Source: Promethearchaeota archaeon (GTDB lineage Archaea > Asgardarchaeota > Lokiarchaeia > Sigyniarchaeales > SOKP01). From it: a stretch of DNA of 52,398 bases. Below the pieces are notes generated by a model. It was not told the origin of the DNA. It saw only the letters and a program-made list of their open reading frames with translations, and did no database searches. This document shows positions 1-16,224 of the stretch, piece after piece (the stretch's first letter is position 1; each line of letters opens with the position of its first letter). Made by a program: the position numbers and the translations under genes. The stretch covers positions 1-52,398 of the forward strand of contig JAHLWP010000032.1 in assembly GCA_019057865.1 (NCBI GenBank), given 5' to 3'.

Positions 1-153
1 AAATTGCTGAAGCTCTTAGAGGAAGGCAACTTACTCAGGAGACCAAAGAAAAAATGGCTGAAGCTCATAGAGGAAGGAGACATACTCAGGAGACTAAAGA
101 AAAAATTTCCGAAGCTCATAGAAGAAGACGACATACTAAAGAAGCTAAAGAAT
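1..153 (+). repeat. 51-bp tandem repeat (at least 3 copies) encoding 17-aa NUMOD3-like units
   Basis: Units at 1-51, 52-102 and 103-153 share aaatNNNNgaagctcNtagaNgaagNNNacNtactNaNgaNNcNaaagaa. Confidence 0.9.
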
Positions 154-533
154 TAAAGGAAGAACAAAAAAAAGAGGAAGCAAATAATCCAGATAAAGAA
201 CCTAATGAGGATTTCCAAAATAAAAATGTAGGAAGTGAATATAAAGACTATAATGGCATTGAACAAGGAATAAATAATACTAATAAAGATTATGAAGGGA
301 TTGACCAATCTTCTGAAATTAATGATAAGGATTTTAGAGGAATTGATGATTCTTCTACTGATAAGAGTAAAGATTATGCTGGAATAGATGAACAATCAGA
401 TAACAAAGCTACTGGTGAATCTTCAACCAAAGAGAGTAAGGATTATAGTGGAATAGACGAGAAGACAGAAGAGAGAGGGAAAGATTATGAAAAAATTGCT
501 GAAAGTCATGGTAATGAAGGAGAAGGTTGGTGA
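3..533 (+). CDS. 5'-truncated protein with NUMOD3-like DNA-binding repeats and acidic KDYxGID-repeat C-terminal tail
   Basis: Frame is open from the window edge (IAEALRGRQLTQETKEK MAEAHRGRRHTQETKEK ISEAHRRRRHT...). HTQETKEKISEAHRG matches the NUMOD3 pattern H(S/T)xETKxK(I/M)S. The ATG at 54 lies inside a repeat and is not the real start. Confidence 0.75.
   Translation: MAEALRGRQLTQETKEKMAEAHRGRRHTQETKEKISEAHRRRRHTKEAKELKEEQKKEEANNPDKEPNEDFQNKNVGSEYKDYNGIEQGINNTNKDYEGIDQSSEINDKDFRGIDDSSTDKSKDYAGIDEQSDNKATGESSTKESKDYSGIDEKTEERGKDYEKIAESHGNEGEGW
243..503 (+). repeat. Degenerate 42-bp/14-aa repeat KD(Y/F)xGI(D/E), 6 copies
   Basis: K codons at 243, 285, 327, 369, 438, 480: KDYNGIE, KDYEGID, KDFRGID, KDYAGID, KDYSGID, KDYEKIA. 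Confidence 0.85.
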
Positions 534-639
534 TTGCTATTTTAAATTATTTATATAAAATCTTTGAATTTTTATAAAAAGATTTAGAATAAGTTATATC
601 ATCTTTTTAAAAGAATTACTTTCAAAGTGAACAATAAGA

Positions 640-2586
640 ATGGAATATAGAATCTCATTTTGGCAGACTCGAATAACTATCACCCAAGCTCCAGAGTCAT
701 TTAAGCCTAAAGTGTTACCTGAAAATTCTTTGCCAAGTTATCAACAAAGTGAAGAGTTTCGAACCTTTTTATACGATCCATTTGGAGGAAATCCTCCTGC
801 TACTTATGGTCTTGAATTATGCGCAAATGAGAATGTTGAAGTTATTTTCTTTACTAAGGCGGAGTCTGTTTCTGAAGGAATCGAATTAGGCTCCGCGTGG
901 CTTTCTAATTTAAAGCATAAATTCGTAGGATTAGATGGAAATGTTGCTGTCAAACCGATATATACTAAAGATCTAATAGAACAGCATGATAGGAACCTGT
1001 TAGAGATTATTCTTCCTGTTGGATTTCTTACCAGCAAAATAAATGTAATAGAAAGATTTATGAAAGCATTTTATTATTTGAAAGATCACTTTGTTCAGTT
1101 GTTCATTTTATGGCAAGAAGAACCACGCATAAGTGAATCTCAAGAAAGATTGAATAGTTACAATTTAAAATTTTTCTTAAATTATGAATTAAACAATTCA
1201 GATATTAAGGAGCATTCAAACCTTAAAGGGATTTTGAAATTTTTATCAATGGATATTGAAACAAATAAAGGGAAACGAGCCTCTTTAGAAAAATCCTCTG
1301 ATATTTCCTTACAGGATATTTTAGAAGGAAAAGTTTTCAATAACAACAAGGATTTTCTTAAACAAGTTGTTCAGGATGAGGTTAATTTTGATTTCCCAGA
1401 GAATTTACCGCTGCCAAGATTACCTATTCTGGAAAATGAGAATGTGAGATATATTGACATCAATAGTAAGTTTAAAAAAAGAGCGATAAGTGTAGGAAAG
1501 CACATAAAAGATGGAGTTATCACTAATCATACAACATATGTACCAATCAACAAACTTCCTCAAGATTTAGCCATCTTTGGTAAATCGGGAAGTGGTAAAA
1601 CTTATTTTTTGGCAAAATTCATTAGCGAACTCAGTAACAAGGCTAAAAAGGTAGGGTTTTTAATTCTAAACGTTGCGAAAGCTTCTCAAGAAATCTTTTA
1701 CAAAGATTTTTTAAAAATTAAGTACTCTGATGATGATTTCCATATACCTTACTTTATTGAAGGTGAGCCAGAGTCTTTAAATAAATGTTTACAGGAGACT
1801 GCCACATATACTTGCGCATCTTTAGGGCTAAAAAATGTGTTTGAGAAGATAATTTATCGTACCAAAATAGGCTTCATGAATTTGAAAGGAAAATTACCAC
1901 AGAATTTTATGGATTTGTTAAAAGGTGTAGAAAGGTACATTATAAATAATCCTTATGGCCCAGAAGAGCAAGCTAATTTACTACAGGTATTTAGAAATCG
2001 CATGAATGTTTTTGATGAAAGGAAGATTCAAAAGGTTGTAAAATTAATAGAAGATTTGCCAGATTGGGTAATAAGTTGGTTGAATGGAAGAAATATTTTC
2101 CTTGATTTGTCCATGTGTAATAAATTCATTAAAATGTTAATTGTAAATGCCATATTCCAACTTGTAAGAACGTTAACCAAAGATAGTGAAGCTGAAGAAC
2201 TAAAATATCTGATTGTTATTGATGAGGCTCACGCTATTTTAGAAAAGCCAATTACTACAAACAGCGATGATGCTGATTTTATCATGAAAGAACAAATGGC
2301 AAAAATATTCTCTGAATTGTTGAAGGAATATCGGAGCCGAGGGGTTGGATTTGTAATTGCGGATCAATCTCCCGCTCGCTTGTTTGATGATGTGGTATCT
2401 CAACCCAGCATAAAGGTTATTTTTAGTGAAGATTATCCGAATAATTTGCTTTTTTCAGAGGATCCTAATGAACGCCAAGTATTAACTCAACTACCTAATA
2501 GACTTGCTTTAGTGATAAATGGTGCCACTGGAGAAAAATATCTAATTAAAACATTAAAGTACAGTTTAAACAATTTTAATGATTAA
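640..2586 (+). CDS. HerA/FtsK-superfamily (DUF87/VirB4-like) ATPase with uncharacterised N-terminal region
   Basis: Walker A GKSGSGKT, Walker B IVIDEAH, arginine-finger/Q motif EYRSRGVGFVIADQSP. Confidence 0.85.
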   Translation: MEYRISFWQTRITITQAPESFKPKVLPENSLPSYQQSEEFRTFLYDPFGGNPPATYGLELCANENVEVIFFTKAESVSEGIELGSAWLSNLKHKFVGLDGNVAVKPIYTKDLIEQHDRNLLEIILPVGFLTSKINVIERFMKAFYYLKDHFVQLFILWQEEPRISESQERLNSYNLKFFLNYELNNSDIKEHSNLKGILKFLSMDIETNKGKRASLEKSSDISLQDILEGKVFNNNKDFLKQVVQDEVNFDFPENLPLPRLPILENENVRYIDINSKFKKRAISVGKHIKDGVITNHTTYVPINKLPQDLAIFGKSGSGKTYFLAKFISELSNKAKKVGFLILNVAKASQEIFYKDFLKIKYSDDDFHIPYFIEGEPESLNKCLQETATYTCASLGLKNVFEKIIYRTKIGFMNLKGKLPQNFMDLLKGVERYIINNPYGPEEQANLLQVFRNRMNVFDERKIQKVVKLIEDLPDWVISWLNGRNIFLDLSMCNKFIKMLIVNAIFQLVRTLTKDSEAEELKYLIVIDEAHAILEKPITTNSDDADFIMKEQMAKIFSELLKEYRSRGVGFVIADQSPARLFDDVVSQPSIKVIFSEDYPNNLLFSEDPNERQVLTQLPNRLALVINGATGEKYLIKTLKYSLNNFND

Positions 2587-2612
2587 AGTTTTCTTGAGAA
2601 TTAACAAAACTT

Positions 2613-5402
2613 TTAAGTAGAATTTATTATTTGACTTCTCTTAATATCCTTTTTAGCTTCTTTAATTAGCATGTTAGCTTTCCTAACCCATCTTTCATTT
2701 TTTCTTTCTTCAGCAATTAACTTCCCCTTATTAAGAAAATCCAAGGCTAGATCTGGTTTTTTCATCTTTAAATAACAATTACCCATCTTAATATATGATT
2801 CATGTATGAAATAATCTTTAGGATTGATTTTGATTGCCATTTCAAATTGTTTTATTCCCTCTTTATAATCACCAGATAATAATAGTATTTCCCCATATGA
2901 ATCATAATAATTACCGGATTTAGGATCTAGCTGAATTGCTTTTTGGATAGCCTTAATAGCCAAATCTTTTTTATAATCCCCTATTAAGGAATAAGCGATG
3001 CTATTAAGATATCTTGAATCAAATTTGACATTTTGTGAAATCAAATCATCAATATAATCAAATAATTTATCATATTCATTTGTCATTTTAAAATATTCCA
3101 TTTTTAAATCTTTATAAAAAGGATAGTCTTTCTCATTATCAAGAAAAGATTTCATTTCTGTAATATAATCTTCTATATTCAAGTTGGCTAAGAGATAAAA
3201 TTTTCTGCTTTTTAGCATTAAAAATTTAAGTGAATATGAAAAACTAGTTTGGGCTTCTTCATTAAGAGAAAAGTAATATGTTTCAATTTTCTCAAAAGAT
3301 TTGGGACGATATGAATCATAAAAACCACATTCTTCAATAAATGAATTCCAAGGAAATGATTGAGGTTTAGGCAACCTGTTCAATGCTTCATTTGTTATAA
3401 GTAAAGCTTTATCATATTTGCTATCATTAGTTAATATTTCAATTGTATAATTGAAAATTTCAATAGAACTTTTACTTTTTACAAAATTTATTAGTTCATC
3501 ATCCTTTTGTAAGAAATTTAATAATTCAATTTTAATCTGAGCTAATTCAATACTTTCTGGTTTTAATTCAAGAGTTTTATTAATTTGTATCAAAGCTTCT
3601 TCATATTTCATTATTTTTTTTAAAAATAGACTGAAATACCTATATACTAATACTTTTTCTGGAAATTTCTTTAAAAGTTTATTGTATTCAGTTATTATTT
3701 CATTTTCATTTTTGATTTCTTTAAAAATCTCTTGAATCTTAATAATATAAAGTAATTCATTATTGGGTTGACCCATAATTGCTTCATCAATAGTTTGAAG
3801 TGATTCATCATATCTTTTTAAATTCATTAAAATTAAGCTCTTCTCTACTAGATTAATGATATTTGGATTTATTTTTATCATTTCCTCAATAACAATTAAC
3901 GCATCACCAAAGTTTTGCGTTGATTTTAAAATTAAAAATTTAGAATATTTTAATTTAATTTCTTCTGGATTTAAATTTATTGCTTTATTGATAAAATTAA
4001 GAGCTTGTTCATTTTTCTTTAATAAATTGGATAACCAGGCTTTTAAATAGAAGTATCTAAAATCTTCTTCTGAAATAATCTTCAAATTCTTATATTTATC
4101 AAGCAAATCCAATGCTTTATCATATTGCTTAAATACGAAAATATATGCATCAACTAAAATATAAACTAATTCAGGTCTTTTAATACTTGGAATCAATTCT
4201 TTAATTATAGACTGGAGTTGGGTAAAATTTTTTGGATTTTTAATAGTTTCAACTAAATTTTGCACCTCTTTTGAATATTCATCATTTGTTTGGATAAGTT
4301 CTCTTAATAATTCCTTATTTAATATTGAAAACCATGGTTTCTCAATGAAAACATCTGGATATTCCTCATATATTGTTAATTGGTGTTTTTGATATGAACT
4401 TCTTCTTGTAAGTGCGCTTAAAGAAGATTGAAGTTCTTCAAATATGGAAAAATATTGTTTATAATCTGTTAACCCGAATCTAGCTCGACTTGTAATTGTT
4501 TCCTTGAATTTTCTAATATAATTTCTTACTAATATGTTTATATCATCTTTTAGCAATATATCAAATAATTGATAATCGCTAATAAGCAGATCAACAACTT
4601 CATTAATTAATTCTCTTATACTAATCTCTACATTTTTAAGATTTTTAAGATAATTAATATTTCTTAACTTTTTTTTTATTACAGTTTCGAAAATAACTCC
4701 ATAATGACTATTTGCTTTAAAGTATAAATCTTTTTTTTCTCTTTGAATTGTAATTTTATAAAAATTAAGGTTGAAAATATCTTCTTCTATAACTAATTGT
4801 AAAAACATTTTCAAGTCAGTTAAAGTTAAATTTTCTTCAGAAGATTTATTTATTTCTTTAATAAAGGCTTCTGCTGAAATATCATATAATAAGTAAAATT
4901 TAGGATGGTTCAAAGCCAAAAATAATATTGATTTGTTTATTTTTTCTTCAGAAAAAATATTAATTTTGTCAATTGTAATTTCATTAGCCAATTCTAAGAA
5001 TTCTACTTTAACTTCATCATCTATGATATTAAATCGATTGAAAAAGTTAGTAATGTCTTTTACGTATTTTTTTATCCTATTTTGTTCAATTTTATTAACA
5101 CTTTCAAAATCTAACTGATATTTTTTTAATCTTCTTAATAGCTCATTCTCCCCATTAGGAGTAATCTTATATATTTTATTCTTACCTGCTGGCTCAACTT
5201 CAATAAAATTCATTCTCCTTAGTTCTTTAGCCCATTTATGGAAAGTATTTTTATTCATCCTATCAGTAATATCATTTTCAGGATGATTTATGAATAGATC
5301 ACGCTCTAATGGGCCAATAGCCCCTAAAGCATAAAGAATAATATCATCATAATTTTTTATTTGAGAAGGTATTTCATCTGGGATTACATTTCTTAAGCTC
5401 AT
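2613..5402 (-). CDS. Winged-helix + tetratricopeptide-repeat protein
   Basis: N-terminal wHTH-like segment (NKNTFHKWAKELRRMNFIEVEPAGKNKIYKITPNGENEL). Multiple TPR units (ALNFINKAINLNP, AIKAIQKAIQLDPKSGNYYDSYGEILL). ATG 5402 preferred over 5468 because the extension overlaps the divergent promoter region. Confidence 0.8.
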   Translation of the reverse strand: MSLRNVIPDEIPSQIKNYDDIILYALGAIGPLERDLFINHPENDITDRMNKNTFHKWAKELRRMNFIEVEPAGKNKIYKITPNGENELLRRLKKYQLDFESVNKIEQNRIKKYVKDITNFFNRFNIIDDEVKVEFLELANEITIDKINIFSEEKINKSILFLALNHPKFYLLYDISAEAFIKEINKSSEENLTLTDLKMFLQLVIEEDIFNLNFYKITIQREKKDLYFKANSHYGVIFETVIKKKLRNINYLKNLKNVEISIRELINEVVDLLISDYQLFDILLKDDINILVRNYIRKFKETITSRARFGLTDYKQYFSIFEELQSSLSALTRRSSYQKHQLTIYEEYPDVFIEKPWFSILNKELLRELIQTNDEYSKEVQNLVETIKNPKNFTQLQSIIKELIPSIKRPELVYILVDAYIFVFKQYDKALDLLDKYKNLKIISEEDFRYFYLKAWLSNLLKKNEQALNFINKAINLNPEEIKLKYSKFLILKSTQNFGDALIVIEEMIKINPNIINLVEKSLILMNLKRYDESLQTIDEAIMGQPNNELLYIIKIQEIFKEIKNENEIITEYNKLLKKFPEKVLVYRYFSLFLKKIMKYEEALIQINKTLELKPESIELAQIKIELLNFLQKDDELINFVKSKSSIEIFNYTIEILTNDSKYDKALLITNEALNRLPKPQSFPWNSFIEECGFYDSYRPKSFEKIETYYFSLNEEAQTSFSYSLKFLMLKSRKFYLLANLNIEDYITEMKSFLDNEKDYPFYKDLKMEYFKMTNEYDKLFDYIDDLISQNVKFDSRYLNSIAYSLIGDYKKDLAIKAIQKAIQLDPKSGNYYDSYGEILLLSGDYKEGIKQFEMAIKINPKDYFIHESYIKMGNCYLKMKKPDLALDFLNKGKLIAEERKNERWVRKANMLIKEAKKDIKRSQIINST

Positions 5403-5440
5403 ATAAATAAAAAGGATGACATCTGATTTAAAATTTATTA

Positions 5441-5510
5441 TGCTAGTACTTGTCCTAGTATTTAACATTATATACTAGTATTTATTATGTGTACTAAGGC
5501 ATAGGACATA
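5441..5510. promoter_or_regulatory. Putative operator cluster in divergent promoter region
   Basis: CTAGTA at 5443, 5455, 5475; CTAGTATTTA direct repeat at 5455 and 5475; inverted pairs TGTCCTA(5451)/TAGGACA(5502) and TAGTAC(5444)/GTACTA(5491). Confidence 0.45.
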
Positions 5511-5568
5511 TATATTATAGTTTCTTATTTATAATTAACTGAAAAAATTAAAACTAAAATGTTAAAAA

Positions 5569-6138
5569 ATGTGTCTAGAAATCTGTTTTAAAAAATACCC
5601 AAATCTGAGAGAATATCCTGTTTATATTGATGGAAGTAATATAGCTTATTCTCGCTATAATAAACTTAAAAAGCCGCTCTTATCAGATATATTATTAGTA
5701 TGTACCTATTTAATAAATACTTTAGAATTCAAAAAAGAGAATGTTCATTGTATATGCGATCCAACACTTAAATATTATATAGATAAGCCTATAGAATATG
5801 AAGCTTTAATAATAGAAGGATTTATCATTGAAGCACCAAAAGTAGCAGATGAATTTATACTTAGTTTTGCGTTAAAACATGACTTTTGTTTTATTATTTC
5901 CAACGATAGATTTAGAAATTATATTGGACAATTGCCAAGTAAGCATTGGTTAGAGGACCGGCGGATTTCCTTTATGATAATTAACAATGAGATTTGTTTA
6001 AGTCCAAATATAAACTATGAAAAGTTACTTTCACAAAAATTTTTTCAATTAAAAGGGTTGCAATCATCCCCAGAGATAACTACAATAGATATATTAAATA
6101 GAATAGAAAAATCAGAAGGAGAGTTAAATTTATTTTAA
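5569..6138 (+). CDS. NYN/PIN-domain ribonuclease, Zc3h12a (Regnase-1)-like
   Basis: Motifs VYIDGSNIAY, ICD, ADEFILSFA, IISNDRFRNY with the acidic catalytic residues intact. Confidence 0.85.
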   Translation: MCLEICFKKYPNLREYPVYIDGSNIAYSRYNKLKKPLLSDILLVCTYLINTLEFKKENVHCICDPTLKYYIDKPIEYEALIIEGFIIEAPKVADEFILSFALKHDFCFIISNDRFRNYIGQLPSKHWLEDRRISFMIINNEICLSPNINYEKLLSQKFFQLKGLQSSPEITTIDILNRIEKSEGELNLF

Positions 6139-6147
6139 ATTACAAAA

Positions 6148-6156
6148 AGGAGGTGA
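6148..6156 (+). promoter_or_regulatory. Shine-Dalgarno AGGAGGTGA for the TTG start at 6167
   Basis: Full consensus 10 nt upstream of the TTG. Confidence 0.7.
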
Positions 6157-6166
6157 GAAAAAAAAG

Positions 6167-8482
6167 TTGGCTAAAGAAATACCCGAAAACCATTCGTCGG
6201 TAAGCGATATGTTAAATCGAGGATATGGGAAAAAAAAATATTCCCTAATTAGTACACAACGAGGGAGAATCTTGCATTATATCAGTAAACGTTTCAAAAT
6301 GGAAGTTTTAAAAACAGGAGCGAATATCCGAGTAAATCATACTATTCTAAGTCAACGAGCGCGTGAAGTATATAATAAAATCTTGGCTGAAGTGCGAAAT
6401 AATGATAAATTAAGGGTATACTATAAGGATGTAAATACACTGCTTAAGGTGTTATATCGTAAGATTGTTGACGCCGCTAAAAATTATGCAAAAGAGCATA
6501 ATTGGTCTGTGGTTCCTATAGAGCTGGAAAGCCAATTGTTCGGAGGAATTGTGTCCTTCGAGCAAGAAGAAATTGGTATAATAGAAGGTGCAACAATTAG
6601 CGCTCGCATTGATGAGATGGTTTTAACTGATGATGAGTGTTTAATTGTAAGAGATTTTAAATCTTATCCTTTAGATGGAGAAGATCCAAGTGATCCTGAT
6701 TCAACTTATCATCGAGACTTTATTCAAGTATTATTATATGGTATCATCCTTGAGGAGAACACAGGATTACGGTGTAAAAAAGTAGTATTGATTTATTTTC
6801 CAAACAAGGTACTTGAATACGACTTCTCTGGTGAGTTTAAGGCTAAAGCTTTATCTTTTGTAAGGGAACATGGCATAGAAGCACTTCAATTTCAAGTGAT
6901 CTCTAATGAAGAAAAAACACCGGAAGAAGATGTTTCAGTGGAAGAATCAGGTAAAACTCAATTAATTAAAAAACCAGAAGAATCTAAGCTTAAAAAAGAT
7001 ACAACTGCTTTTACAAGAGATCCAGATAGTTTTGGTTGGGTAAATACTGACAAGAGTAAACCCTTAGAGTTAATAAATAACAAGGAGAATAAACTTGAAG
7101 GTTATCTTTGGGCTGATAAGGCGGAGTTAGTTAAAGATGGCGATCTTGTTGCAGTTGAACGAAAAGATGGATTGCGTATTATTTGCATAGTAGAACATAT
7201 TAAGTGTTTTGAAGAAAATGCTGCTATCGTACTTAAGAGCCTTAATGAAAGTGTTTATATCATTAAGCTAAATCCGATTATTGAGCTCCATCCAGAAGGT
7301 CCCCGATGTCTTCGACCACAAACAATCTTACAGGGTAAAATTACACGTCTTAAAGAATGGGAATTCTATGAATTCAAAAAAATCCCTCAGAATGGCATTC
7401 CTTTTGGCTGGATTCATGATATTGACCAAGAATATAGATATCACTTTGACCTACTACTTTATTATCAAGGTATCTTTATTGGTGGTACACAAGGTACTGG
7501 AAAAACATCAGCTATTCGGTTTATGACACTTTCAACCGCGCCCCAATCAAATAGTCCTGCGATAATCATTTTTGATGCTGAAGATGAGTTTTCCAATCTA
7601 CCCAATATTCCCTCAACAGAAGAATCAATGAAATTAATGTCTAAATGGGGCATCGAACCCGTAGATACTAAATGCATTGAGATTATCCATTTAACTAATA
7701 AATTTGACTGGTGCTTAACTCTAAGGAAGATTGATCCAAAACATTTACTTTTATTCCTTCATGAACTTCCTAATGCTTCAACCACATTATTGAAACGCAT
7801 CATACAAGATATTATATATGACAATCCAGAAAGAGAGTTTACGTTTCAGGAACTTCATAGCGAGATCCTTCAATCCGTAACACAGATTAAAAATGCAAGT
7901 ATCAGAGATGCTATTACAAGATCCCTTCTATCAATTACACTTGATATGTTCGATAAAAAAGGTACAGAAACGATTAACATTGAGCAGATGCTAGTTCCAG
8001 GTAAAATTACAGTTATAAATTGTTTTCAATTAGATGATGATCAACAGCGTGTAGTGGCACTTTACTTGCTAGCGATGTTCCATAAGTATAAGATGAAACA
8101 CGACTCTAAAATAGACACTTCTGATATGGGTGTATTATTTGTATTAGATGAAGTGACGAGGATAATGCCTAAACTTCTTGCTAGCAGTGATTATCAAAAG
8201 CGCATATTGCATTTTCTTAGTGAAATACAACACCGTGGCCGTAAAAGACGATATGGAGTAATTTATGCTACACAACATCCGAAGGACATCCAGAAAGAGC
8301 TTGTTGATCTATGTAACACTAAAATCTTCTTCCTTATCGAAGGAAGTGGATGTGCATACCTTAAAGACTATCTTAACACTGATCAGCGGGAACAATTAAA
8401 ACGACTTCCAGTAGGACATGCCTATATCCTAAGTAAGGGAAAACATGAGCCGCAAATTATTAGGTTCCCATATCTAACTTAA
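6167..8482 (+). CDS. PD-(D/E)xK (RecB/Cas4-like) nuclease - HAS barrel - HerA-like ATPase fusion
   Basis: Nuclease motifs ELE...ARID...RDFKS...QVLLY; HAS-barrel-like LVKDGDLVAVE...IICIVEHI; Walker A GTQGTGKT, IIFDAEDEF, Walker B FVLDEV, RGRKRRYGVIYATQHP. Confidence 0.85.
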   Translation: MAKEIPENHSSVSDMLNRGYGKKKYSLISTQRGRILHYISKRFKMEVLKTGANIRVNHTILSQRAREVYNKILAEVRNNDKLRVYYKDVNTLLKVLYRKIVDAAKNYAKEHNWSVVPIELESQLFGGIVSFEQEEIGIIEGATISARIDEMVLTDDECLIVRDFKSYPLDGEDPSDPDSTYHRDFIQVLLYGIILEENTGLRCKKVVLIYFPNKVLEYDFSGEFKAKALSFVREHGIEALQFQVISNEEKTPEEDVSVEESGKTQLIKKPEESKLKKDTTAFTRDPDSFGWVNTDKSKPLELINNKENKLEGYLWADKAELVKDGDLVAVERKDGLRIICIVEHIKCFEENAAIVLKSLNESVYIIKLNPIIELHPEGPRCLRPQTILQGKITRLKEWEFYEFKKIPQNGIPFGWIHDIDQEYRYHFDLLLYYQGIFIGGTQGTGKTSAIRFMTLSTAPQSNSPAIIIFDAEDEFSNLPNIPSTEESMKLMSKWGIEPVDTKCIEIIHLTNKFDWCLTLRKIDPKHLLLFLHELPNASTTLLKRIIQDIIYDNPEREFTFQELHSEILQSVTQIKNASIRDAITRSLLSITLDMFDKKGTETINIEQMLVPGKITVINCFQLDDDQQRVVALYLLAMFHKYKMKHDSKIDTSDMGVLFVLDEVTRIMPKLLASSDYQKRILHFLSEIQHRGRKRRYGVIYATQHPKDIQKELVDLCNTKIFFLIEGSGCAYLKDYLNTDQREQLKRLPVGHAYILSKGKHEPQIIRFPYLT

Positions 8483-8483
8483 T

Positions 8484-8500
8484 TTTTTTTATTTTTTTAT
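8484..8500 (+). terminator. Oligo-T archaeal terminator candidate
   Basis: Two consecutive T7 tracts directly after the stop at 8482. Confidence 0.4.
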
Positions 8501-8523
8501 TATAATGAACGGGGTTGGTATAA

Positions 8524-8700
8524 ATGGAAGAAAAATACACCAATAACGTAATTAGAACAAAAATCTTAGAACTTGAAGATAAATTAATGGATTTAATCGA
8601 AATTTCTAGTAAAAATGAAAATATTCCTATCCCTGTTTTTGAATTTGAAATGAATGCAATCCTAAAAGAAATTGAATATTTGGAAACTTTGATTAATTAA
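8524..8700 (+). CDS. Small helical/coiled-coil protein, 58 aa (not in ORF track)
   Basis: MEEKYTNNVIRTKILELEDKLMDLIEISSKNENIPIPVFEFEMNAILKEIEYLETLIN*; G-rich GGGGT upstream; protein-like composition. Confidence 0.6.
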   Translation: MEEKYTNNVIRTKILELEDKLMDLIEISSKNENIPIPVFEFEMNAILKEIEYLETLIN

Positions 8701-8806
8701 AGTTCTTTTCCTTCAAAACAATAAATTTTATGGATATTAATTTCGTTTAATTATTGATAAAACTTATAATACATAGACTCTCTTTATTTATTAGTGCAAA
8801 TTCAAA

Positions 8807-9211
8807 ATGATTCATAATATTATTATATACCATCAAAATGGTCTTGCAATGATCACAAGGCAATATAGAGATAAATTCAGTTCCGTACTATCAGGATTAT
8901 TAACAACACTTATGGACTCTAGTGTTGAATATAATACTGAAAAAAAAATAGAGAAAAAAGTAATAGAACTGGATTTATTTAATTTAAGCTTAATTAAGAG
9001 AAAAAACGTAATTCTAATAGCATCTACTGATAAAGAAGATGATTTAAAACAAGTTAATGAACTATTAAATATCATATTAAAGCAATTTGTTAAAAATTAT
9101 AGCGAAATAATAGAAAATTGGACTGGAGATACTCGAACTTTTAAAGAGTTTGAAACTATTATTGATAGACAATTAAAAAAAGGAAAGATTCGCTTTAAAA
9201 CTAAAAAGTAA
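8807..9211 (+). CDS. Longin-like domain protein
   Basis: MIHNIIIYHQNGLAMITRQY start, LSGLLTTL helix, ILIASTDKED strand, LNIILKQFVKNY...WTGD..FKEF; ~130 aa, typical Asgard longin pattern. Confidence 0.7.
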   Translation: MIHNIIIYHQNGLAMITRQYRDKFSSVLSGLLTTLMDSSVEYNTEKKIEKKVIELDLFNLSLIKRKNVILIASTDKEDDLKQVNELLNIILKQFVKNYSEIIENWTGDTRTFKEFETIIDRQLKKGKIRFKTKK

Positions 9212-9251
9212 TAGATGTACTGGTTAATATTAATTTTTTGAGGGAATATAA

Positions 9252-9839
9252 ATGGATATCTCAATAATTATTGCTGTTGTAGCAGCATCTATTTCAATTA
9301 TAGGTTGGATTGTTAATCATATTTTATCTGGATATAGAGATAGAAAAAAACAAATATTAGAAGCTTCATTAAGATATATAGAAACCCAATTAAAAGAATT
9401 ATACGGTCCGCTTGCATTTTTGGTTATGGAAGGACAGCGAACATTTAAAGATTTTTTAGATTCGATGGGTAAGGAGCCGGATAATTCTAGTACACGTCAT
9501 ATTTTTTCTAGAGAAAAACAACTTTCTGAAGAAGAATTAAAAAATTGGCTTTTTTGGGTAGAAAATGATTTCTTTCCTAGAGATGAAAAAATTAAAAACC
9601 TTCTTATGGGAAAAACACATTTAATTGAGGGTTCTAAAATTCCTAGAAGCTTCATTTTATTTTTAGATCACTATAATTCTTGGAGAATTAACCATCTTCG
9701 TTGGAAAAAGGAAGGAATAAAGTATTCATGGCATTCTAAAATTAATTATCCCATAGAATTTGAATTGGATATACTCAGTATTTTCGAAAAATTAAAGCAA
9801 CAACATCATAAGATTCTTAATAAGATTTCCAAAATATAG
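9252..9839 (+). CDS. Hypothetical protein with N-terminal transmembrane helix
   Basis: 195 aa; hydrophobic residues 3-25 then a soluble helical domain. Confidence 0.7.
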   Translation: MDISIIIAVVAASISIIGWIVNHILSGYRDRKKQILEASLRYIETQLKELYGPLAFLVMEGQRTFKDFLDSMGKEPDNSSTRHIFSREKQLSEEELKNWLFWVENDFFPRDEKIKNLLMGKTHLIEGSKIPRSFILFLDHYNSWRINHLRWKKEGIKYSWHSKINYPIEFELDILSIFEKLKQQHHKILNKISKI

Positions 9840-9960
9840 ATCTTGTTGATTTTCAAAAATTCGAAAAGCACCATATTAAATCTATATCCTCCAACTATTT
9901 GTTTTTCATTTTTATGTAGAATTTGTAGACTTTTTATATCTTAGTTTAGACTCATTATAG

Positions 9961-10587
9961 ATGACTACACCACTTCAATTCATAGGTTTCAAACAACCCC
10001 CTGAAGATCTTTTAAAAGGGTTCGAGGCGTGGTGTGTAGCGTTTAATGAGTTTGCTGTTGTTTTTTTTGGATACATGAAATACATTTTAGCTTTCATTTT
10101 GCTAGCTATAGGATTGATGACGCTTTTAAGACTACGCGGCATATACATACAGCCAAGGATGAGAAATATAGATAAAAAAGTTGTAGAGCAAGATCAACTT
10201 GAGAAGCCTCGTTTAATTCTGGCAACGATTTACATTGTTATAGGTTCAGGAATATTATTTAACTGGTTCACAATGTTTTTGATTTGGGCTTTAGATCCAC
10301 TTCCAGATAGGTTAATCTTTAAATTTATAAATTTTCAGGGGCTTATTGATCCATATTATTTGAACAGAATATCAGATATTAGTTCTGCGGTATATCCTCA
10401 TGAGCAAACAATATATTACTGTATTGCTATTGGTTCTTTTGTAGCAATTACAGATTTGATGATTGCTGTTTGGTATTTAGTAAATAGAGTACCATTTAAT
10501 CCTAAAATGGCTTTTGGATTACTAACTGGGGGTGTTTTAATGGGGATGCTTATGGGATTTACGACTTGTCTTCCATTATTCTTATAA
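9961..10587 (+). CDS. Integral membrane protein (~4 TM)
   Basis: Four long hydrophobic segments. Confidence 0.75.
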   Translation: MTTPLQFIGFKQPPEDLLKGFEAWCVAFNEFAVVFFGYMKYILAFILLAIGLMTLLRLRGIYIQPRMRNIDKKVVEQDQLEKPRLILATIYIVIGSGILFNWFTMFLIWALDPLPDRLIFKFINFQGLIDPYYLNRISDISSAVYPHEQTIYYCIAIGSFVAITDLMIAVWYLVNRVPFNPKMAFGLLTGGVLMGMLMGFTTCLPLFL

Positions 10588-10757
10588 TTTTAAAAATAAA
10601 TCTCTTTAATTATAAACTAGTTCTTTTTCTATTGTCATTTTAAAAGGATAAGATTCCAAAGGATAGAATTTAAATTGAGTAGTGTAATATACATTTGTGT
10701 AAATAATTATAAAATGAAATCTATTATTAATATAATTACCAAATCCAAGGTTGAACT

Positions 10758-11714
10758 ATGATTAAACTAAATAAAAAATCCTTATTTTATTCGATAATAA
10801 TAGTTATAGTTGTCATATTTGCTATAATATGGGGCTTTACCATATATGAGAAACCAAAGGATGATGATGAAGAATTTAAAGTTCCTATGGCTTCGGGTGG
10901 TGAAACAGAACTAACAGTAGGATATTATGATGATAAGATTTGGGATAAAAAATTGGGAAATGAAACTGATCCAGAAGATCTTTTTGGGTGGGGTGCGGAT
11001 ATAATCAATTCTACTTCAAAATGTGTCATAAAAGGAAGGGAAAATGGCACGTTAGATATATTTGATATTGTTGAAATATTGATAGGTAAAACATGGTCAG
11101 AGCCAAATAAGGTTGTATTAAGAGATACGTATAATTTATATGGTAAATGGTTTGCATGGATGTTTTTTGTAGATTATTGGAATTTTACAATTTATGATTT
11201 TAATGAAGAAGCAGATAAAAAAGACGTGATTCTTCCGATTTTTCAAAATACTGAAGATTTTTCAGAAATCCTTGAGGAGTTTCAAGATTTAAGCCCTGAA
11301 CTCCATATTGGGTCTAATATTACAGCAAAGTTATTAATTTATTATATGGTTATAAAAAGTTTACCAGTGCTTAAACCCGTTGATATTTATATTCAAAATA
11401 TAATTAATGTTATTTCTCCTAGTGATATAGAATTTACTTCCTATAATTATACATGTTGTGTAAATATATCTTATTTTGAAGAAGAAGAATATTATATCAA
11501 TGCATATTATTCAAAAGTTGATGGGATGATTCAAAATTTAATGTTTTTAGATGAGAATCAATCAATTTTTTATTATCAATATGGTTTTTACAAGGAGCCG
11601 ATGAGAGATTTTACTCCCGCAATAACAGGGTATGAAATGCTTTCGTTTTCATTGCTATTTATTATCAGTGTCATTGGAATGACTTTTATTATCAATAAGA
11701 AAACTAAAGGTTAA
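10758..11714 (+). CDS. Cell-surface glycoprotein with Loki-CTERM-like sorting tail
   Basis: N-terminal signal/TM, NxS/T sequons, C-terminal ITGYE + hydrophobic helix + KKTK. Confidence 0.7.
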   Translation: MIKLNKKSLFYSIIIVIVVIFAIIWGFTIYEKPKDDDEEFKVPMASGGETELTVGYYDDKIWDKKLGNETDPEDLFGWGADIINSTSKCVIKGRENGTLDIFDIVEILIGKTWSEPNKVVLRDTYNLYGKWFAWMFFVDYWNFTIYDFNEEADKKDVILPIFQNTEDFSEILEEFQDLSPELHIGSNITAKLLIYYMVIKSLPVLKPVDIYIQNIINVISPSDIEFTSYNYTCCVNISYFEEEEYYINAYYSKVDGMIQNLMFLDENQSIFYYQYGFYKEPMRDFTPAITGYEMLSFSLLFIISVIGMTFIINKKTKG

Positions 11715-11795
11715 ATTGATTTTATATAAAGGAAATTAATGAAATTTAAAAACAGTTAAAAAATCAAATTATAAATTTAAATAAGCTTAATTATT

Positions 11796-12572
11796 ATGAA
11801 GTCAATTAATAAATTTTTTCTAATTATTATTGTTATTGGCTTACCATTTTTATCTTTATTTTATACCATCGTTAATAAAGAAGTATTACATAGAAGCCAA
11901 TATGTTCAGAAATTAAGAGATGTTATTGATTTATGTGAAAGATTGAACTGGGATTCCTACTATGTAGAACATGACCTGAAATCATTGGATTGGTATGTAG
12001 CTGAAATGGTTAATGATAATGTAATGACAGAAGAAGAGGCAAATAATACAATATTTAGGTTCATTTTAGAAAATTCTTATAGAGTCACTGAAATTAAAGG
12101 AAAAAGTGATATTTATGAATATGGAATTTTCAAAGATACTCCTGAAATACTAATGGAATGGTTTATAATCGATTTGTATGATGAGAATTATTTCTTTTAC
12201 AACTATACATATGATTTATTATTAAATGAATATGGAGAGAGTACTAAACCATTTATTTTAATGTTTGATATTAATCTGATGAGCGATTTAGTTGATGATT
12301 TTGAGTCTAAATCTGTTAACCCATTAGATGAGAGCGAAATAGGATTAGTAGTGGCAATTTCGCTGCAGGCAGGATCTATTGCATTATTAAGTTTTGGAGA
12401 CGAAAACGAAATTGCTAAGAAAAAAAAAGGGATGAAAAGAGATGAAAAGAAGTCTATTAAGAACAAAATATTGGATATTCTAAAATTTCGTTTCGTTGTA
12501 TCTCTCATTCTCTATAGCATAAGTCTATATTTTATAATCCGTTGTTTAGTTATTTTTTTTAATGTTTATTGA
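11796..12572 (+). CDS. Hypothetical membrane protein (~3 TM)
   Basis: N-terminal TM, acidic central domain, two C-terminal hydrophobic segments separated by a basic loop. Confidence 0.65.
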   Translation: MKSINKFFLIIIVIGLPFLSLFYTIVNKEVLHRSQYVQKLRDVIDLCERLNWDSYYVEHDLKSLDWYVAEMVNDNVMTEEEANNTIFRFILENSYRVTEIKGKSDIYEYGIFKDTPEILMEWFIIDLYDENYFFYNYTYDLLLNEYGESTKPFILMFDINLMSDLVDDFESKSVNPLDESEIGLVVAISLQAGSIALLSFGDENEIAKKKKGMKRDEKKSIKNKILDILKFRFVVSLILYSISLYFIIRCLVIFFNVY

Positions 12573-12708
12573 TTTTTCCAATTATATATTTCAAAGATAT
12601 TGAAGATTTAAGAACTACCAATTGATTTAAAGCTAATATCTCAATATAGATGTTATAATTCTTGGAAAAAAAGGGAGTTTAAAACTGTTTATTTAAAATA
12701 TTATTTAA

Positions 12709-14409
12709 ATGACCATAGAAGTAAGTCTATTAACTATTATATTAATTAATTTAGTTCTCTCGATGATCTACTTTTTTTTAAGATACAGAGAAAGCAGATT
12801 GAATATAATAGGAAGAATAAATCAAATAAATCTCATTCTAAAGTTTATAATAATTTCCGTATCAATTATCTCTCTAATCATTCTTAGCCTAAATTCGAAT
12901 AATATCACCCAATCGTCAGATTCTTTGCAGAATCCAGTAATTACCAATATTTCTATCCCATTTTTGTTTCTCTCGATTATTTTATTCATATCAACTTTTC
13001 GAATTTCAAATAAATATGCTATAGAATTAGACTGTCCCTCACGATTAAAATCTAAAAAAGGCACAATAAAAATTGGAAAAGTCATGAAAAATAGCAGAGT
13101 AAAACACAATTTTTTTCTCAGTATTTCTGATCTCACTCAGCATATGTTTGTATGTGGTATAACAGGTACAGGAAAGAGTAATTTTATTCAAAATTTTTTA
13201 CTAAATTTCACAAAAAACCATAAAATCCCTTTTCTACTGAATGAATTTAAAGGAGAGTATCATTTTTTACAGAATGTAATAGATAATCTACTTATTATTA
13301 AACCTGGTGAAAATTTCTCTATAAATATATTTGATCCAGAAGGAGCAAATTCTCAAGTACATGCTGAAAGAATTTTTCAGATTTTTGAAAGTGGAGGTAT
13401 GTTTGAGGGAGTAGAATATTCTCCGCAGATGCAGCGTGTTTTTGTTGATATCTTAAATGAAGTATGCTTAAAAGAAAGCAATAGAAATTGGGAGGCATTT
13501 AGTAAGATTAGTGAAAAATATCACATCGAAAATAAAGATGTTACCATTCAAAAAAGTGTTGCAGCCATACAAAATAGGATAAGAAGGTATTTTATAGGTA
13601 CCTTGAAGGATATATTTGCGAAAAAGACAGGGCTTAACGTAAAAGAATTGTTTGATTATAGAGTTCTATTAGATCTAAGTTCAATTATTCGTTTAGGGGG
13701 AGAAAAAGAAGATGCATTATTCTTCTTGAATATGATCTTGAAATATCTATGGGATAAGAATCTTGAAGTTGGGAGCAGAGATTATGAAGGAATTAAACAT
13801 ATAACTATTATCGAAGATGCTCAATATTTTGCTCCTGAAGAATTATCTAACCGAACGAAATTAACTTCTTATATTGAGGATATAGCATTATTGTTACGAG
13901 GAACGGGAGAGTGTTTAATTTCACTTGCCACTCGTCCTACGATTAGTAAAGAGATTTTAGCGAATTGTGGAGTACTTATATCATTTCAAAATCATATGCA
14001 AAAAGAAATCATGCTAGAATTATTAAATCTTGAAGAAAGGCAAAAAGAATATCTTTCAATGCTACAAAAAGGGCAATGCATTATTAGGATAAATTCAATT
14101 GAAAAGCCATTCTTATTAAGAACACCTAATATAGAGAGAAGTTGGTTAACGGATGAGGAAATTAGTGAAAATAATAATAAAATTTTAGAAAATAAATTTT
14201 ATAGTTTAAAAAATAAGGATGATAAAAAACAGGAGAAGTATGTAATGGAAGGTTTAAAATCATTTTGTAAGGCTTGTGGAAAAGAAGTAAAGAATAATTT
14301 GAAATTTTGTGAATCTTGTTCTACTAATTCAGGAGAAGATGAAAGTTTTGAGAGGTTAAGAGCCTATATTAAAAAATTGTATAAAGAGCAACAAAAAGAA
14401 AAAAGTTAA
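12709..14409 (+). CDS. Membrane-anchored HerA/VirD4/CedB-like ATPase with C-terminal zinc ribbon
   Basis: 3 N-terminal TM; QHMFVCGITGTGKS; EFKGEY; atypical Walker B IIEDAQ; LLRGTGECLISLATRP; CKAC-x10-CESC. Confidence 0.85.
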   Translation: MTIEVSLLTIILINLVLSMIYFFLRYRESRLNIIGRINQINLILKFIIISVSIISLIILSLNSNNITQSSDSLQNPVITNISIPFLFLSIILFISTFRISNKYAIELDCPSRLKSKKGTIKIGKVMKNSRVKHNFFLSISDLTQHMFVCGITGTGKSNFIQNFLLNFTKNHKIPFLLNEFKGEYHFLQNVIDNLLIIKPGENFSINIFDPEGANSQVHAERIFQIFESGGMFEGVEYSPQMQRVFVDILNEVCLKESNRNWEAFSKISEKYHIENKDVTIQKSVAAIQNRIRRYFIGTLKDIFAKKTGLNVKELFDYRVLLDLSSIIRLGGEKEDALFFLNMILKYLWDKNLEVGSRDYEGIKHITIIEDAQYFAPEELSNRTKLTSYIEDIALLLRGTGECLISLATRPTISKEILANCGVLISFQNHMQKEIMLELLNLEERQKEYLSMLQKGQCIIRINSIEKPFLLRTPNIERSWLTDEEISENNNKILENKFYSLKNKDDKKQEKYVMEGLKSFCKACGKEVKNNLKFCESCSTNSGEDESFERLRAYIKKLYKEQQKEKS

Positions 14410-15985: not shown

Positions 15986-16081
15986 GGATTTAAAAGCAAA
16001 GGAAATCCTTATTTAAGGGTGTGATATCCAGGTGATATTCAAGAAAAGCACTTAAAGCATGAGAAATTATTTATGTCGTTA
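14928..16081 (-). mobile_element. IS630-family insertion sequence, 1154 bp
   Basis: Imperfect terminal inverted repeats TAACGACggAAtTAATTTCgCA / TAACGACatAAaTAATTTCtCA; TA duplication at 14926-14927 and 16082-16083; higher GC than flanks; DDE transposase. Confidence 0.92.
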
Positions 16082-16224
16082 TAAATAATAGCAATTCAAG
16101 AAGTTAATACCTCAGAATCAAATCATTATTTGATACCTAATTATTAATTCTTTTAATTGGAATTTATAAACTAAGTTTAATTTTTGATAAATTAAGATTT
16201 ATCTAAACTTATATAATTGAAAAA

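What the first reader, a model, noticed from the sequence alone, without database searches (positions are those of the whole stretch)
2613..8482. Candidate new Asgard defence module: wHTH-TPR divergent from NYN RNase + nuclease-HerA fusion
Seen: a large wHTH-TPR gene is transcribed away from a two-gene operon (28-nt gap, perfect SD). The operon encodes a Regnase-like NYN RNase and a PD-(D/E)xK nuclease-HAS-HerA fusion, and operator-like repeats fill the spacer. The TPR gene is the only sizeable minus-strand gene among otherwise + strand genes in the first 14.9 kb. Established: HerA ATPases pair with effectors in antiphage systems (Sir2-HerA, DUF4297-HerA); TPR arrays sense viral proteins in Avs systems; PIN/NYN RNases act as toxins. 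Inference: the TPR protein is a sensor/regulator that controls a DNA-degrading translocase plus an RNA-degrading effector. I do not know a named system with this composition.
Basis: partly seen in the sequence, partly recalled or inferred. Interest (0 to 1): 0.85.

Follow-up and report, generated by a model that had tools for sequence, protein, structure and literature searches.

The report
Asgard nuclease-HerA cassette with swappable partners
A rare, patchily distributed Asgard-archaeal gene cassette fuses a DNA-cutting enzyme to a DNA-pumping HerA motor, pairs it with exchangeable partners (an RNase, a DNA-binding TPR regulator, or DNA-modification genes), and most likely acts as an uncatalogued defence against foreign DNA.

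Summary
Window 2613-8482 encodes a wHTH-TPR protein transcribed away from a two-gene operon: a Zc3h12a-type NYN RNase and a 771-aa Cas4/RecB-like nuclease-HAS barrel-HerA ATPase.

- The TPR gene probably starts at Met23 (5402), so the spacer is 166 nt.
- NYN is facultative, present in about half of the related loci.
- The TPR protein belongs to a large lineage-specific paralog family and looks like a MarR-type regulator, not an Avs-like sensor.

The fusion is the constant core. It occurs in 10 of 400 genomes of the phylum. It is missing at this site in sister genomes that are 91-95% identical, and it is unlinked to NurA/Mre11/Rad50.

Its partners swap between close relatives:
- wHTH-TPR with or without NYN;
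- an SMC-HerA-like protein;
- or a DpdB / PAPS-reductase / ABC-ATPase / TGT / PglZ DNA-modification cluster.

Proteins encoded just upstream (NYN, a small protein, a stand-alone Cas4) share a C-terminal tail, TLDVL..IE..GE(L/F)xLF, probably a docking peptide. Known defence genes lie near related loci.

Best reading: an uncatalogued HerA-nuclease defence cassette, a new variant of a known kind. Function is inferred, not shown.

The parts
2613..5402 (-). wHTH-TPR partner. It has a MarR/PadR-like wHTH, a conserved helical/winged middle domain of about 230 aa, and a TPR array from about residue 445 of the 951-aa ORF. The ORF runs on to 5468, but the start is probably Met23 at 5402.
   Evidence: Pfam TPR hits. 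N-termini of 15 homologues align from Met23. AF2 model pLDDT 76. MarR-family fold, Z 10.5.
5403..5568 (.). Divergent promoter/operator spacer. CTAGTA / TACTAGTA cluster at 5443-5480. Conserved box GTGTACTAAGGCATAGGACATATATAT at about 5489-5515, with a TATA-like end.
   Evidence: 4 of 14 window CTAGTA matches lie within 38 nt. Repeats listed. The boxes are shared with the spacers of L039, L037 and L032.
5569..6138 (+). NYN (Zc3h12a-type, PIN-like) RNase, 189 aa. The acidic residues D21, D64, D93/E94 and D113 are conserved in orthologues.
   Evidence: PF11977 E 4.3e-9, 36.7 bits against a cut-off of 23. Alignment of 15 orthologues.
6079..6135 (+). C-terminal tail of the NYN protein, TTIDILNRIEKSEGELNLF. 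It is a putative docking peptide shared by unrelated proteins encoded just upstream of the fusion.
   Evidence: All 18 regex hits among every ORF of the fetched loci are C-termini of the gene directly upstream of the fusion. Weaker variants occur on L072 Cas4, L063 and L078.
6149..6156 (+). Shine-Dalgarno-like GGAGGTGA, 10 nt before the TTG start of the fusion.
   Evidence: Read directly from the sequence. Homologues begin with M(A/T)KE, which aligns to the TTG start.
6167..6877 (+). Fusion residues 1-237: helical N-terminus plus a Cas4/RecB-like PD-(D/E)xK nuclease core.
7028..7447 (+). Fusion residues 288-427: HAS-type beta-barrel. It follows a disordered linker at residues 238-283.
   Evidence: AF2 secondary structure. 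Foldseek alignments of more than 500 columns to HerA chains.
7472..8482 (+). Fusion residues 436-771: HerA/FtsK-clade ATPase. Walker A is GTGKT 443-447, Walker B is D661-E662, the arginine block is RGRKR 690-694, and TQ is 702-703.
   Evidence: Invariant columns. PF01935. Foldseek 4d2i E 1e-21.
8483..8501 (+). T-rich tract directly after the stop codon. It is the likely archaeal terminator and closes the two-gene operon.
   Evidence: Read directly from the sequence. That oligo-T tracts terminate archaeal transcription is established knowledge.

Best explanation
This is an accessory, horizontally shuffled conflict (anti-mobile-element) cassette.

Core. The constant core is a single-chain effector: a HerA hexameric dsDNA translocase with a Cas4/RecB-like nuclease tethered to its HAS-barrel face through a flexible linker. 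Inferred: the ring threads DNA and the six nucleases degrade it. This follows the logic of NurA-HerA, DUF4297-HerA and the REase-HerA end of DndH.

Second effector. The NYN RNase, co-translated from the same operon, adds an RNA-degrading arm. Inferred: it docks on the HerA platform through its conserved C-terminal tail.

Regulator. The divergently transcribed wHTH-TPR protein is most likely a MarR-type repressor. It would bind the conserved palindromic boxes in the 166-nt spacer and release the operon when its TPR array binds a signal.

Shown: the domain identities, catalytic motifs, gene order, conservation of the spacer boxes, patchiness and partner swapping. Inferred: hexamer formation, docking, repression, and the defence role itself.
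For: Domains and motifs.

Rarity and patchiness:
- The fusion is in 10 of 400 genomes of the phylum.
- Only 83 proteins reach E<=1e-30 among 1.84 billion representatives, and about 15 of them are full-length.
- The first 16.1 kb of the window has no counterpart at the syntenic site in sister genomes with 95% and 91% DNA identity. The break lies beside an IS630 copy.

Conserved divergent architecture across more than 25 loci.

Partner swapping. Context types A, B, A2 and D are interleaved on the fusion tree. Sister fusions with branch lengths under 0.1 carry different partners.

Alternative context. Eight or more loci carry DpdB-like (E 8e-30), BrxP/SspD PAPS reductase (E 3e-51), SMC/ABC ATPase, TGT-fold and PglZ genes.

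Defence neighbours. 135 non-redundant neighbours include MkoA (1e-162), LmuB (3e-83), UzuA, Dsr1, Aga_SIR2, type II methyltransferases, Cas4, BrxHI, SngC, a TIR domain and Schlafen.

Docking tail: and the split Cas4+HerA form in L072.

Spacer boxes.

Published model. The 'HerA/FtsK capture' model of nuclease plus HerA plus fast-evolving wHTH proteins is set out in PMC10853773.
Against: - There is no experimental evidence. The defence role rests on guilt by association.
- No background rate was computed for defence genes among neighbours.
- PADLOC gives only partial, weak HerA/mad8 hits.
- The window's island also holds two more HerA/FtsK ATPases, membrane proteins and a NUMOD3 protein. The closest locus (L013) has MCM and HNH genes. 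A mobile-element origin or function is therefore possible.
- The wHTH-TPR family is mostly found away from the fusion.
- The docking tail was not tested structurally.
- Most loci are marine-sediment metagenome contigs and may not be fully independent.
Confidence: 0.55

Rival explanations
1. The cassette belongs to the life cycle of a mobile element. The nuclease-HerA fusion would process, segregate, package or transfer the element's DNA in a terminase- or relaxase-like role, and the wHTH-TPR protein would be the element's regulator.
For: - The island at 1-14.9 kb holds three HerA/FtsK ATPases. One has 3 TM helices and a zinc ribbon and sits beside four membrane proteins. A NUMOD3 protein and an IS630 copy are also present.
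- L013 has MCM-like and HNH genes beside the fusion.
- The island is absent from sister genomes.
- The fusion gives weak PHROG hits to packaging ATPases.
Against: - No relative was found in IMG/VR viral contigs, in 50,697 phage records or in 72,556 plasmid records.
- Flanks differ from locus to locus and often hold housekeeping genes, so only the 2-3 gene cassette travels.
- The fusion is repeatedly embedded in DNA-modification / PglZ clusters.
- No integrase was seen among the top neighbour families.
Confidence: 0.2
2. The TPR protein is a physical sensor subunit of the effector complex, Avs-like. It would bind a viral protein and activate the HerA-nuclease and NYN directly, not through transcription.
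For: - The TPR arrays are long and vary in length (775-1377 aa proteins) and diverge fast: only about 25-30% identity in the TPR part.
- Adjacency to the fusion is tight in 16 loci.
Against: - No NTPase or oligomerisation module was found in the partner.
- The N-terminus is a MarR/PadR-type DNA-binding wHTH.
- The genes are divergent and share a spacer with conserved palindromic boxes.
- Paralogues sit next to unrelated genes such as Ras-like GTPases.
- In other loci the partner is replaced by DpdB-like or SMC-HerA-like proteins while the fusion barely changes.
Confidence: 0.15
3. It is a housekeeping double-strand-break repair variant in which NurA is replaced by a fused RecB-like nuclease.
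For: The best structural matches include the repair HerAs of Sulfolobus, Thermococcus and Deinococcus. The nuclease-plus-HerA logic is the same.
Against: - The fusion is present in only 10 of 400 genomes of the phylum, and in 3 of 53 genomes of its own genus.
- The genome carries two canonical NurA-HerA pairs elsewhere.
- No Mre11, Rad50 or NurA gene is adjacent.
- It is absent at the syntenic site of 95%-identical relatives.
Confidence: 0.03

Closest known systems
HerA-effector antiphage systems (DUF4297-HerA and SIR2-HerA, also called Gao_Her or Nezha)
   Same: A HerA ATPase with a HAS barrel serves as the platform for a degradative effector. The fusion's C-terminal 480 residues match these HerA chains (8zit, 8xav, 8sub, 8j4u) at Foldseek E 1e-19 to 1e-16. 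Distribution is patchy and accessory.
   Different: The nuclease is fused in cis and is Cas4/RecB-type (PF12705). No DUF4297 or SIR2 gene is present. PADLOC HerA models match only partially, best E 1e-13 over residues 564-722. The cassette adds an NYN RNase and a wHTH-TPR gene. It has been found only in Asgard archaea so far.
DndH of DndFGH and the 'HerA/FtsK capture systems' (PMC10853773)
   Same: A restriction-endonuclease-fold nuclease lies immediately N-terminal to a HerA/FtsK ATPase in one polypeptide. Fast-evolving wHTH proteins accompany it. Some loci sit beside phosphorothioation- or Dpd-type modification genes. The proposed mechanism is to pump invader DNA into the nuclease.
   Different: The roughly 900-residue N-terminal region of DndH (inactive SWI2/SNF2, TRDs, inactive methylase) is missing. 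DndF and DndG are absent. No PADLOC DndH hit was obtained. The fusion has a true HAS barrel. That paper does not mention TPR or Asgard and mentions NYN once, in a passage I did not read.
NurA-HerA DNA end-resection complex
   Same: These are the top structural matches (4d2i E 1e-21, 9x1m E 1e-21). A nuclease is coupled to a HerA translocase.
   Different: There is no NurA fold and no mre11/rad50 linkage. The distribution is patchy. The same genome has canonical NurA-HerA pairs on contigs C68 and C5.
Bacterial PD-(D/E)xK-HerA fusions (uncharacterised; ESM Atlas cluster of 73 members, mostly Myxococcota; and a 'Dna2/Cas4 domain-containing protein' of a Pseudomonadota MAG)
   Same: The domain order is the same, PF12705 + PF01935 + HerA_C. 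Atlas feature score 0.93. P0057 matches the HerA part at E 1e-82.
   Different: These are only distant relatives, their neighbourhoods were not examined, and none has a studied function.
HTH-TPR transcription regulators (RRNPP/AimR type) and Regnase-1/Zc3h12a NYN RNases
   Same: The partner combines a DNA-binding domain with a TPR ligand-binding array. The RNase matches PF11977 above the cut-off and keeps the conserved aspartates.
   Different: The partner's DNA-binding domain is a MarR-like winged helix, not an XRE-type HTH, and it carries an extra conserved middle domain of unknown fold. The NYN protein lacks the CCCH zinc finger of Regnase and carries a unique C-terminal tail. The comparison with RRNPP/AimR rests on my own knowledge, not on a test.

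Membership tests
HerA (HerA/FtsK-clade ATPase with HAS barrel) | HAS beta-barrel immediately N-terminal to the P-loop domain | tested here: met
   The AF2 model shows an all-beta region at 288-427 followed by the ATPase. Foldseek alignments of 510-618 columns match HerA chains at E down to 1e-21.
HerA (HerA/FtsK-clade ATPase with HAS barrel) | Walker A, Walker B, arginine finger and Q sensor | tested here: met
   K446, D661, E662, R690, R692 and R694 are invariant and Q703 is nearly invariant across 27 sequences. PF01935 E 7e-10.
HerA (HerA/FtsK-clade ATPase with HAS barrel) | Hexameric ring that translocates dsDNA | not testable with these tools
   No multimer modelling or biochemistry was available.
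PD-(D/E)xK nuclease, Cas4/RecB-like (PF12705) | D...(D/E)xK catalytic core plus the QxxxY motif on an alpha-beta-beta-beta-alpha-beta fold | tested here: met
   D149 is invariant; K165, Q187 and Y191 are nearly invariant; position 163 is acidic. Strands 128-165 and helix 182-199 appear in the model. PF12705 matches 12 of 27 members, best E 5.6e-12. PDB entry 4ic1 (recalled as Cas4 SSO0001) E 0.011.
PD-(D/E)xK nuclease, Cas4/RecB-like (PF12705) | Pfam match of the window's own protein above the cut-off | tested here: not met
   Only DUF87 and AAA were reported for the 771-aa protein. Membership rests on the family profile and the motifs.
Cas4 proper | Four-cysteine Fe-S cluster and linkage to cas1/cas2 | tested here: not met
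   C203 is the only invariant cysteine in the N-domain. No cas genes are adjacent.
Zc3h12a-like NYN RNase (PF11977) | Pfam match above the gathering score, and conserved acidic residues | tested here: met
   36.7 bits against a cut-off of 23, covering profile positions 4-142 of 154. D21, D64, D93 and D113 are conserved in orthologues.
Regnase-1 subfamily | CCCH zinc finger after the NYN domain | tested here: not met
   The 189-aa protein ends in the docking-type tail and has no CCCH motif.
DUF4297-HerA / SIR2-HerA defence systems | A DUF4297 or SIR2 effector gene next to HerA, and a match to the systems' HerA models | tested here: not met
   PADLOC gave no DUF4297 or SIR2 hit for any of the 10 island proteins scanned, and the HerA models matched only partially.
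NurA-HerA-Mre11-Rad50 repair module | Adjacency to nurA/mre11/rad50 and near-universal vertical inheritance | tested here: not met
   The neighbours are NYN and wHTH-TPR. NurA lies on other contigs. The fusion is in 10 of 400 genomes.
DndFGH (DndH) | The multidomain N-terminal region of about 900 aa, plus DndF and DndG partners | tested here: not met
   The protein is 771 aa with only nuclease, HAS and HerA domains. No PADLOC Dnd hits were found in the window.
Avs/STAND sensors | STAND NTPase domain between the effector and the TPR sensor | tested here: not met
   No P-loop family was detected in the 951-aa protein by Pfam, NCBIfam or PADLOC. Its N-terminus is a wHTH.
MarR/PadR-type winged-helix DNA-binding proteins | Winged-helix fold | tested here: met
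   VIA Z 10.6-9.0, rmsd 2-4 A, over 70-80 residues (12-96), to many MarR/PadR/ArsR chains. DNA binding itself was not tested.

The most novel reading that the evidence does not exclude
The Asgard nuclease-HerA is a modular docking platform. Unrelated proteins (an NYN RNase, a stand-alone Cas4 nuclease, a small helical protein) are recruited to it by a shared C-terminal peptide of about 19 residues, TLDVL..IE..GE(L/F)xLF. The platform is plugged interchangeably into a transcription-factor-controlled cassette or into BREX/Dnd/Dpd-like DNA-modification systems. This would be a previously undescribed, peptide-addressed way of assembling archaeal immune effectors.
Probability: 0.35. Interest if true: 0.72.

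Novelty: new variant of a known kind. Interest (0 to 1): 0.6.

Why it matters
- HerA-based defence has so far been studied in bacteria. This would be an archaeal, Asgard-restricted variant with the nuclease built into the motor.
- It pairs a Regnase-type NYN RNase with a DNA-degrading machine in the closest prokaryotic relatives of eukaryotes. That bears on the ancestry of eukaryotic NYN immune RNases.
- The shared C-terminal tail gives a directly testable rule for how effectors are recruited to HerA rings.
- Its alternative embedding in DpdB / PAPS-reductase / PglZ clusters links it to the 'HerA/FtsK capture' idea. It offers a compact model of 2-3 genes in which to test that idea.
- The two Asgard defensome surveys I checked do not mention HerA, NYN or TPR.

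Tried and rejected
Contexts came instead from the search for related loci and the fetch from genomes.
- Single-protein pattern scans of genome and viral contigs found nothing. The alignment-based viral scan also found nothing.
- tblastn against the plasmid and phage collections gave no match.
- The full-length profile against PDB sequences gave only a weak hit to a HerA chain of SIR2-HerA complex entries, E 0.02.
- Foldseek of the partner's N-domain gave nothing below E 0.09. The ESM Atlas gave no usable hit for it. The partner's middle domain therefore remains unassigned.
- I looked for preQ0-synthesis genes among the small type C neighbours by PDB sequence search. Four of five gave nothing, and one matched AF0587. 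The modification chemistry of type C loci is left open.
- The window has no tRNA gene and no Rfam family, so neither gives an integration-site clue.
- Papers: no hit for 'nuclease-HerA', 'Cas4-HerA' and similar terms. The Iyer 2004 FtsK-HerA paper is not held.
- The careful tree did not finish in 300 s. The quick IQ-TREE result was used.
- The repair reading was rejected on distribution.
- The Avs-like reading was rejected because the partner has no NTPase.
Full report
**What is there.**
- The window is the start of contig C65 of an Asgard (Promethearchaeota-type) genome.
- The NYN stop and the TTG start of the third gene are 28 nt apart, with GGAGGTGA 10 nt upstream of the start. Homologues begin M(A/T)KE at that point.
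- A T-rich tract follows the stop of the third gene directly. NYN plus fusion therefore form a two-gene operon.
- Fifteen homologues of the minus-strand protein all start at its Met23. The gene probably starts at 5402 and the divergent spacer is 5403-5568.

**The fusion (771 aa).**
- Pfam sees only the HerA central domain in the window's protein.
- An AF2 model built on 27 sequences (pLDDT 81) resolves four parts: an N-terminal domain (1-237), a disordered linker (238-283), a beta-barrel (288-427) and a P-loop domain (436-771).
- Foldseek aligns more than 500 columns to HerA of Sulfolobus (E 1e-21), Thermococcus and Deinococcus. It aligns equally to the HerA chains of DUF4297-HerA and SIR2-HerA defence complexes.
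- The Walker A lysine, the Walker B DE and the RGRKR block are invariant.
- The N-domain carries D149, [DE]163-x-K165 and Q187-x3-Y191 on an alpha-beta-beta-beta-alpha-beta core.
- PF12705 matches 12 of 27 family members, best E 5.6e-12.
- The N-domain profile finds PDB entry 4ic1, which I recall to be Cas4 SSO0001, across the catalytic core at E 0.011.
- It lacks the Cas4 cysteine cluster.

**The NYN protein.**
- PF11977 matches above the cut-off.
- Four acidic positions are conserved in 15 orthologues.

**The partner.**
- Residues 12-96 are a MarR/PadR-type winged helix, Z about 10.5.
- A conserved middle domain of about 230 residues has no clear match.
- TPR repeats of variable length follow.
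- One subfamily has two wHTH copies.
- No NTPase was found.

**Distribution.**
- A profile of the fusion finds it in 10 of 400 genomes of the phylum, and in 3 of 53 genomes of the same genus.
- Only 83 proteins reach E<=1e-30 among 1.84 billion representatives. About 15 are full-length. Others are HerA-only or carry different N-termini.
- In the two closest genomes (95% and 91% DNA identity over the housekeeping genes), homology to the window begins at about 16.12 kb. This is just past an IS630 copy at 14925-15985. Nothing in the 18 kb upstream in those genomes resembles the island.
- The genome has canonical NurA-HerA pairs on other contigs.
- The repair reading is therefore rejected.

**Neighbourhoods.** Genome and metagenome scans gave about 30 loci with informative upstream sequence. 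They fall into these types:
- Type A, 11 loci: a divergent wHTH-TPR gene, then NYN, then the fusion.
- Type B, 5 loci: the same without NYN.
- Type A2, 3 loci: the divergent gene is a 1421-aa SMC-N plus HerA-like protein.
- Type C, 8 loci: the divergent gene is DpdB-like (PADLOC E 8e-30). Around it lie a BrxP/SspD-type PAPS reductase (E 3e-51), SMC/ABC ATPases and a TGT-fold protein. In two of these loci there is also a PglZ protein.
- One locus (L072) has a stand-alone Cas4-like nuclease just upstream of a HerA that lacks the fused nuclease.

On a quick maximum-likelihood tree of 35 fusions, types A, B, A2 and D are interleaved. Sister sequences with branch lengths under 0.1 carry different partners. 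Type C forms two to three clades. The fusion is thus the constant element and its partners are exchanged often.

**Close NYN orthologues.** Close orthologues of the NYN protein (E<1e-40) occur almost only beside the fusion. The one exception lies next to a ParB-DUF488 protein.

**A shared tail.**
- The NYN proteins and the unrelated small proteins upstream of type C fusions end in the same motif, TLDVL..IE..GE(L/F)xLF.
- All 18 regex hits among every ORF of the fetched loci are C-termini of the gene directly upstream of the fusion.
- Weaker versions end the L072 Cas4 and the L063 and L078 proteins.
- I infer a docking peptide for the HerA platform. This was not tested.

**The spacer.**
- Four of the 14 CTAGTA matches in the window lie within 38 nt, including the palindrome TACTAGTA.
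- The boxes GTAC.TGTCCTAGTA and GTACTA..A.AGGACATATATAT recur in the spacers of L039, L037 and L032, whose proteins are about 40% identical.
- With the MarR-like wHTH, this points to operator sites for the partner.

**The partner family.**
- Its N-domain matches 52 of 53 genomes of the genus, with about 6 full-length copies in this genome.
- Other copies sit next to Ras-like GTPases and MalT-like TPR proteins.
- It is a general, lineage-specific regulator family recruited here, not a defence-only sensor.

**Defence association.**
- Among 135 non-redundant neighbours within 8 kb of non-type-C loci, PADLOC finds MkoA, LmuB, UzuA, Dsr1, Aga_SIR2, type II methyltransferases, Cas4, BrxHI and SngC.
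- Pfam finds a CAP12/Pycsar TIR domain, Schlafen, HNH and a DDE transposase, alongside housekeeping genes.
- No background rate was computed.
- No relatives were found in viral contigs, phage records or plasmid records.

**Comparison with the literature.**
- PADLOC does not name the cassette.
- Two Asgard defensome papers do not mention HerA, NYN or TPR.
- The nearest published concept is the 'HerA/FtsK capture system', which comprises DndH and relatives (PMC10853773; PMC12839542).
- Uncharacterised PD-(D/E)xK-HerA fusions exist in bacteria.

**Verdict.**
- This is a real, conserved, rare cassette.
- It is most likely an anti-invader system: a nuclease-HerA effector with an optional docked NYN RNase and a wHTH-TPR repressor. 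Confidence is about 0.55.
- It is a new variant of a known kind.
- The main rival is a role in the life cycle of a mobile element, at about 0.2. The rest of the island fits that reading.

Noticed in passing
window 3-2586; L013 12833-16832: A second HerA-like ATPase (648 aa, 640-2586) lies convergent to the TPR gene. It is preceded by the C-terminus of a NUMOD3-repeat protein that the contig start cuts off. The pair (683-aa HTH/NUMOD3 protein plus 657-aa ATPase, 69% identical) is syntenic in G008:C47. HerA1-like genes also flank the partner in L034 and L053. It may be a further optional component or a separate system.
   Followed up: partly
window 8807-14409: A membrane module lies downstream. 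It holds four predicted membrane proteins (195, 208, 318 and 258 aa) and a third HerA/FtsK ATPase (566 aa) with three N-terminal TM helices and a C-terminal zinc ribbon. Homologues of the 208-aa protein and of this ATPase recur near the fusion in L013, L037, L024, L075, L083 and L095. This could be a DNA-transfer or secretion apparatus.
   Followed up: partly
window 14925-16137: An IS630-type element in two ORFs (HTH 15452-15985, DDE_3 14925-15401) marks the synteny break. Sister genomes G012 (95% identical) and G030 (91%) align only from about 16120 onward.
   Followed up: yes
G000:C25:1-16000 (L107); G000:C52 (L105): The wHTH-X-TPR family is expanded, with about 6 full-length copies in this genome, and is present in 52 of 53 genomes of the genus. 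On C25 a unit is tandemly duplicated: partner, a 213-232 aa protein, a MalT-like TPR protein of about 650 aa, and a Ras/Roc GTPase.
   Followed up: partly
L072 1830-5139: A split form. A stand-alone Cas4-like nuclease (344 aa, PF01930 E 1e-16) ends in a tail resembling the docking motif (…ELPDILGRIMEQNGTLNLF, followed by 8 more residues). It lies directly upstream of a 763-aa HerA whose N-terminus differs from that of the fusion.
   Followed up: partly
L109 (G189:C13) 7412-9917: A close NYN orthologue (42% identity) occurs without a detectable fusion. It is followed by a 263-aa unknown protein and a ParB_N-HTH_ParB-DUF488 protein. This may be another NYN-containing conflict module.
   Followed up: no
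L063 and L066 (metagenome contigs): The most divergent fusions (26-28% identity) sit in clusters with PglZ (961 aa), a PAPS reductase, a DpdB-like protein and an SMC/ABC ATPase. This is a BREX/Dnd-like hybrid that includes a nuclease-HerA.
   Followed up: partly
window 8525-8701: A 58-codon ORF (MEEKYTNN…) sits between the terminator of the fusion and the next gene. It is below the ORF listing threshold and was not examined.
   Followed up: no
window 2001-6000: G+C falls to 0.22-0.26 across the TPR gene and the spacer, against about 0.30 for the window. This is consistent with foreign origin.
   Followed up: no
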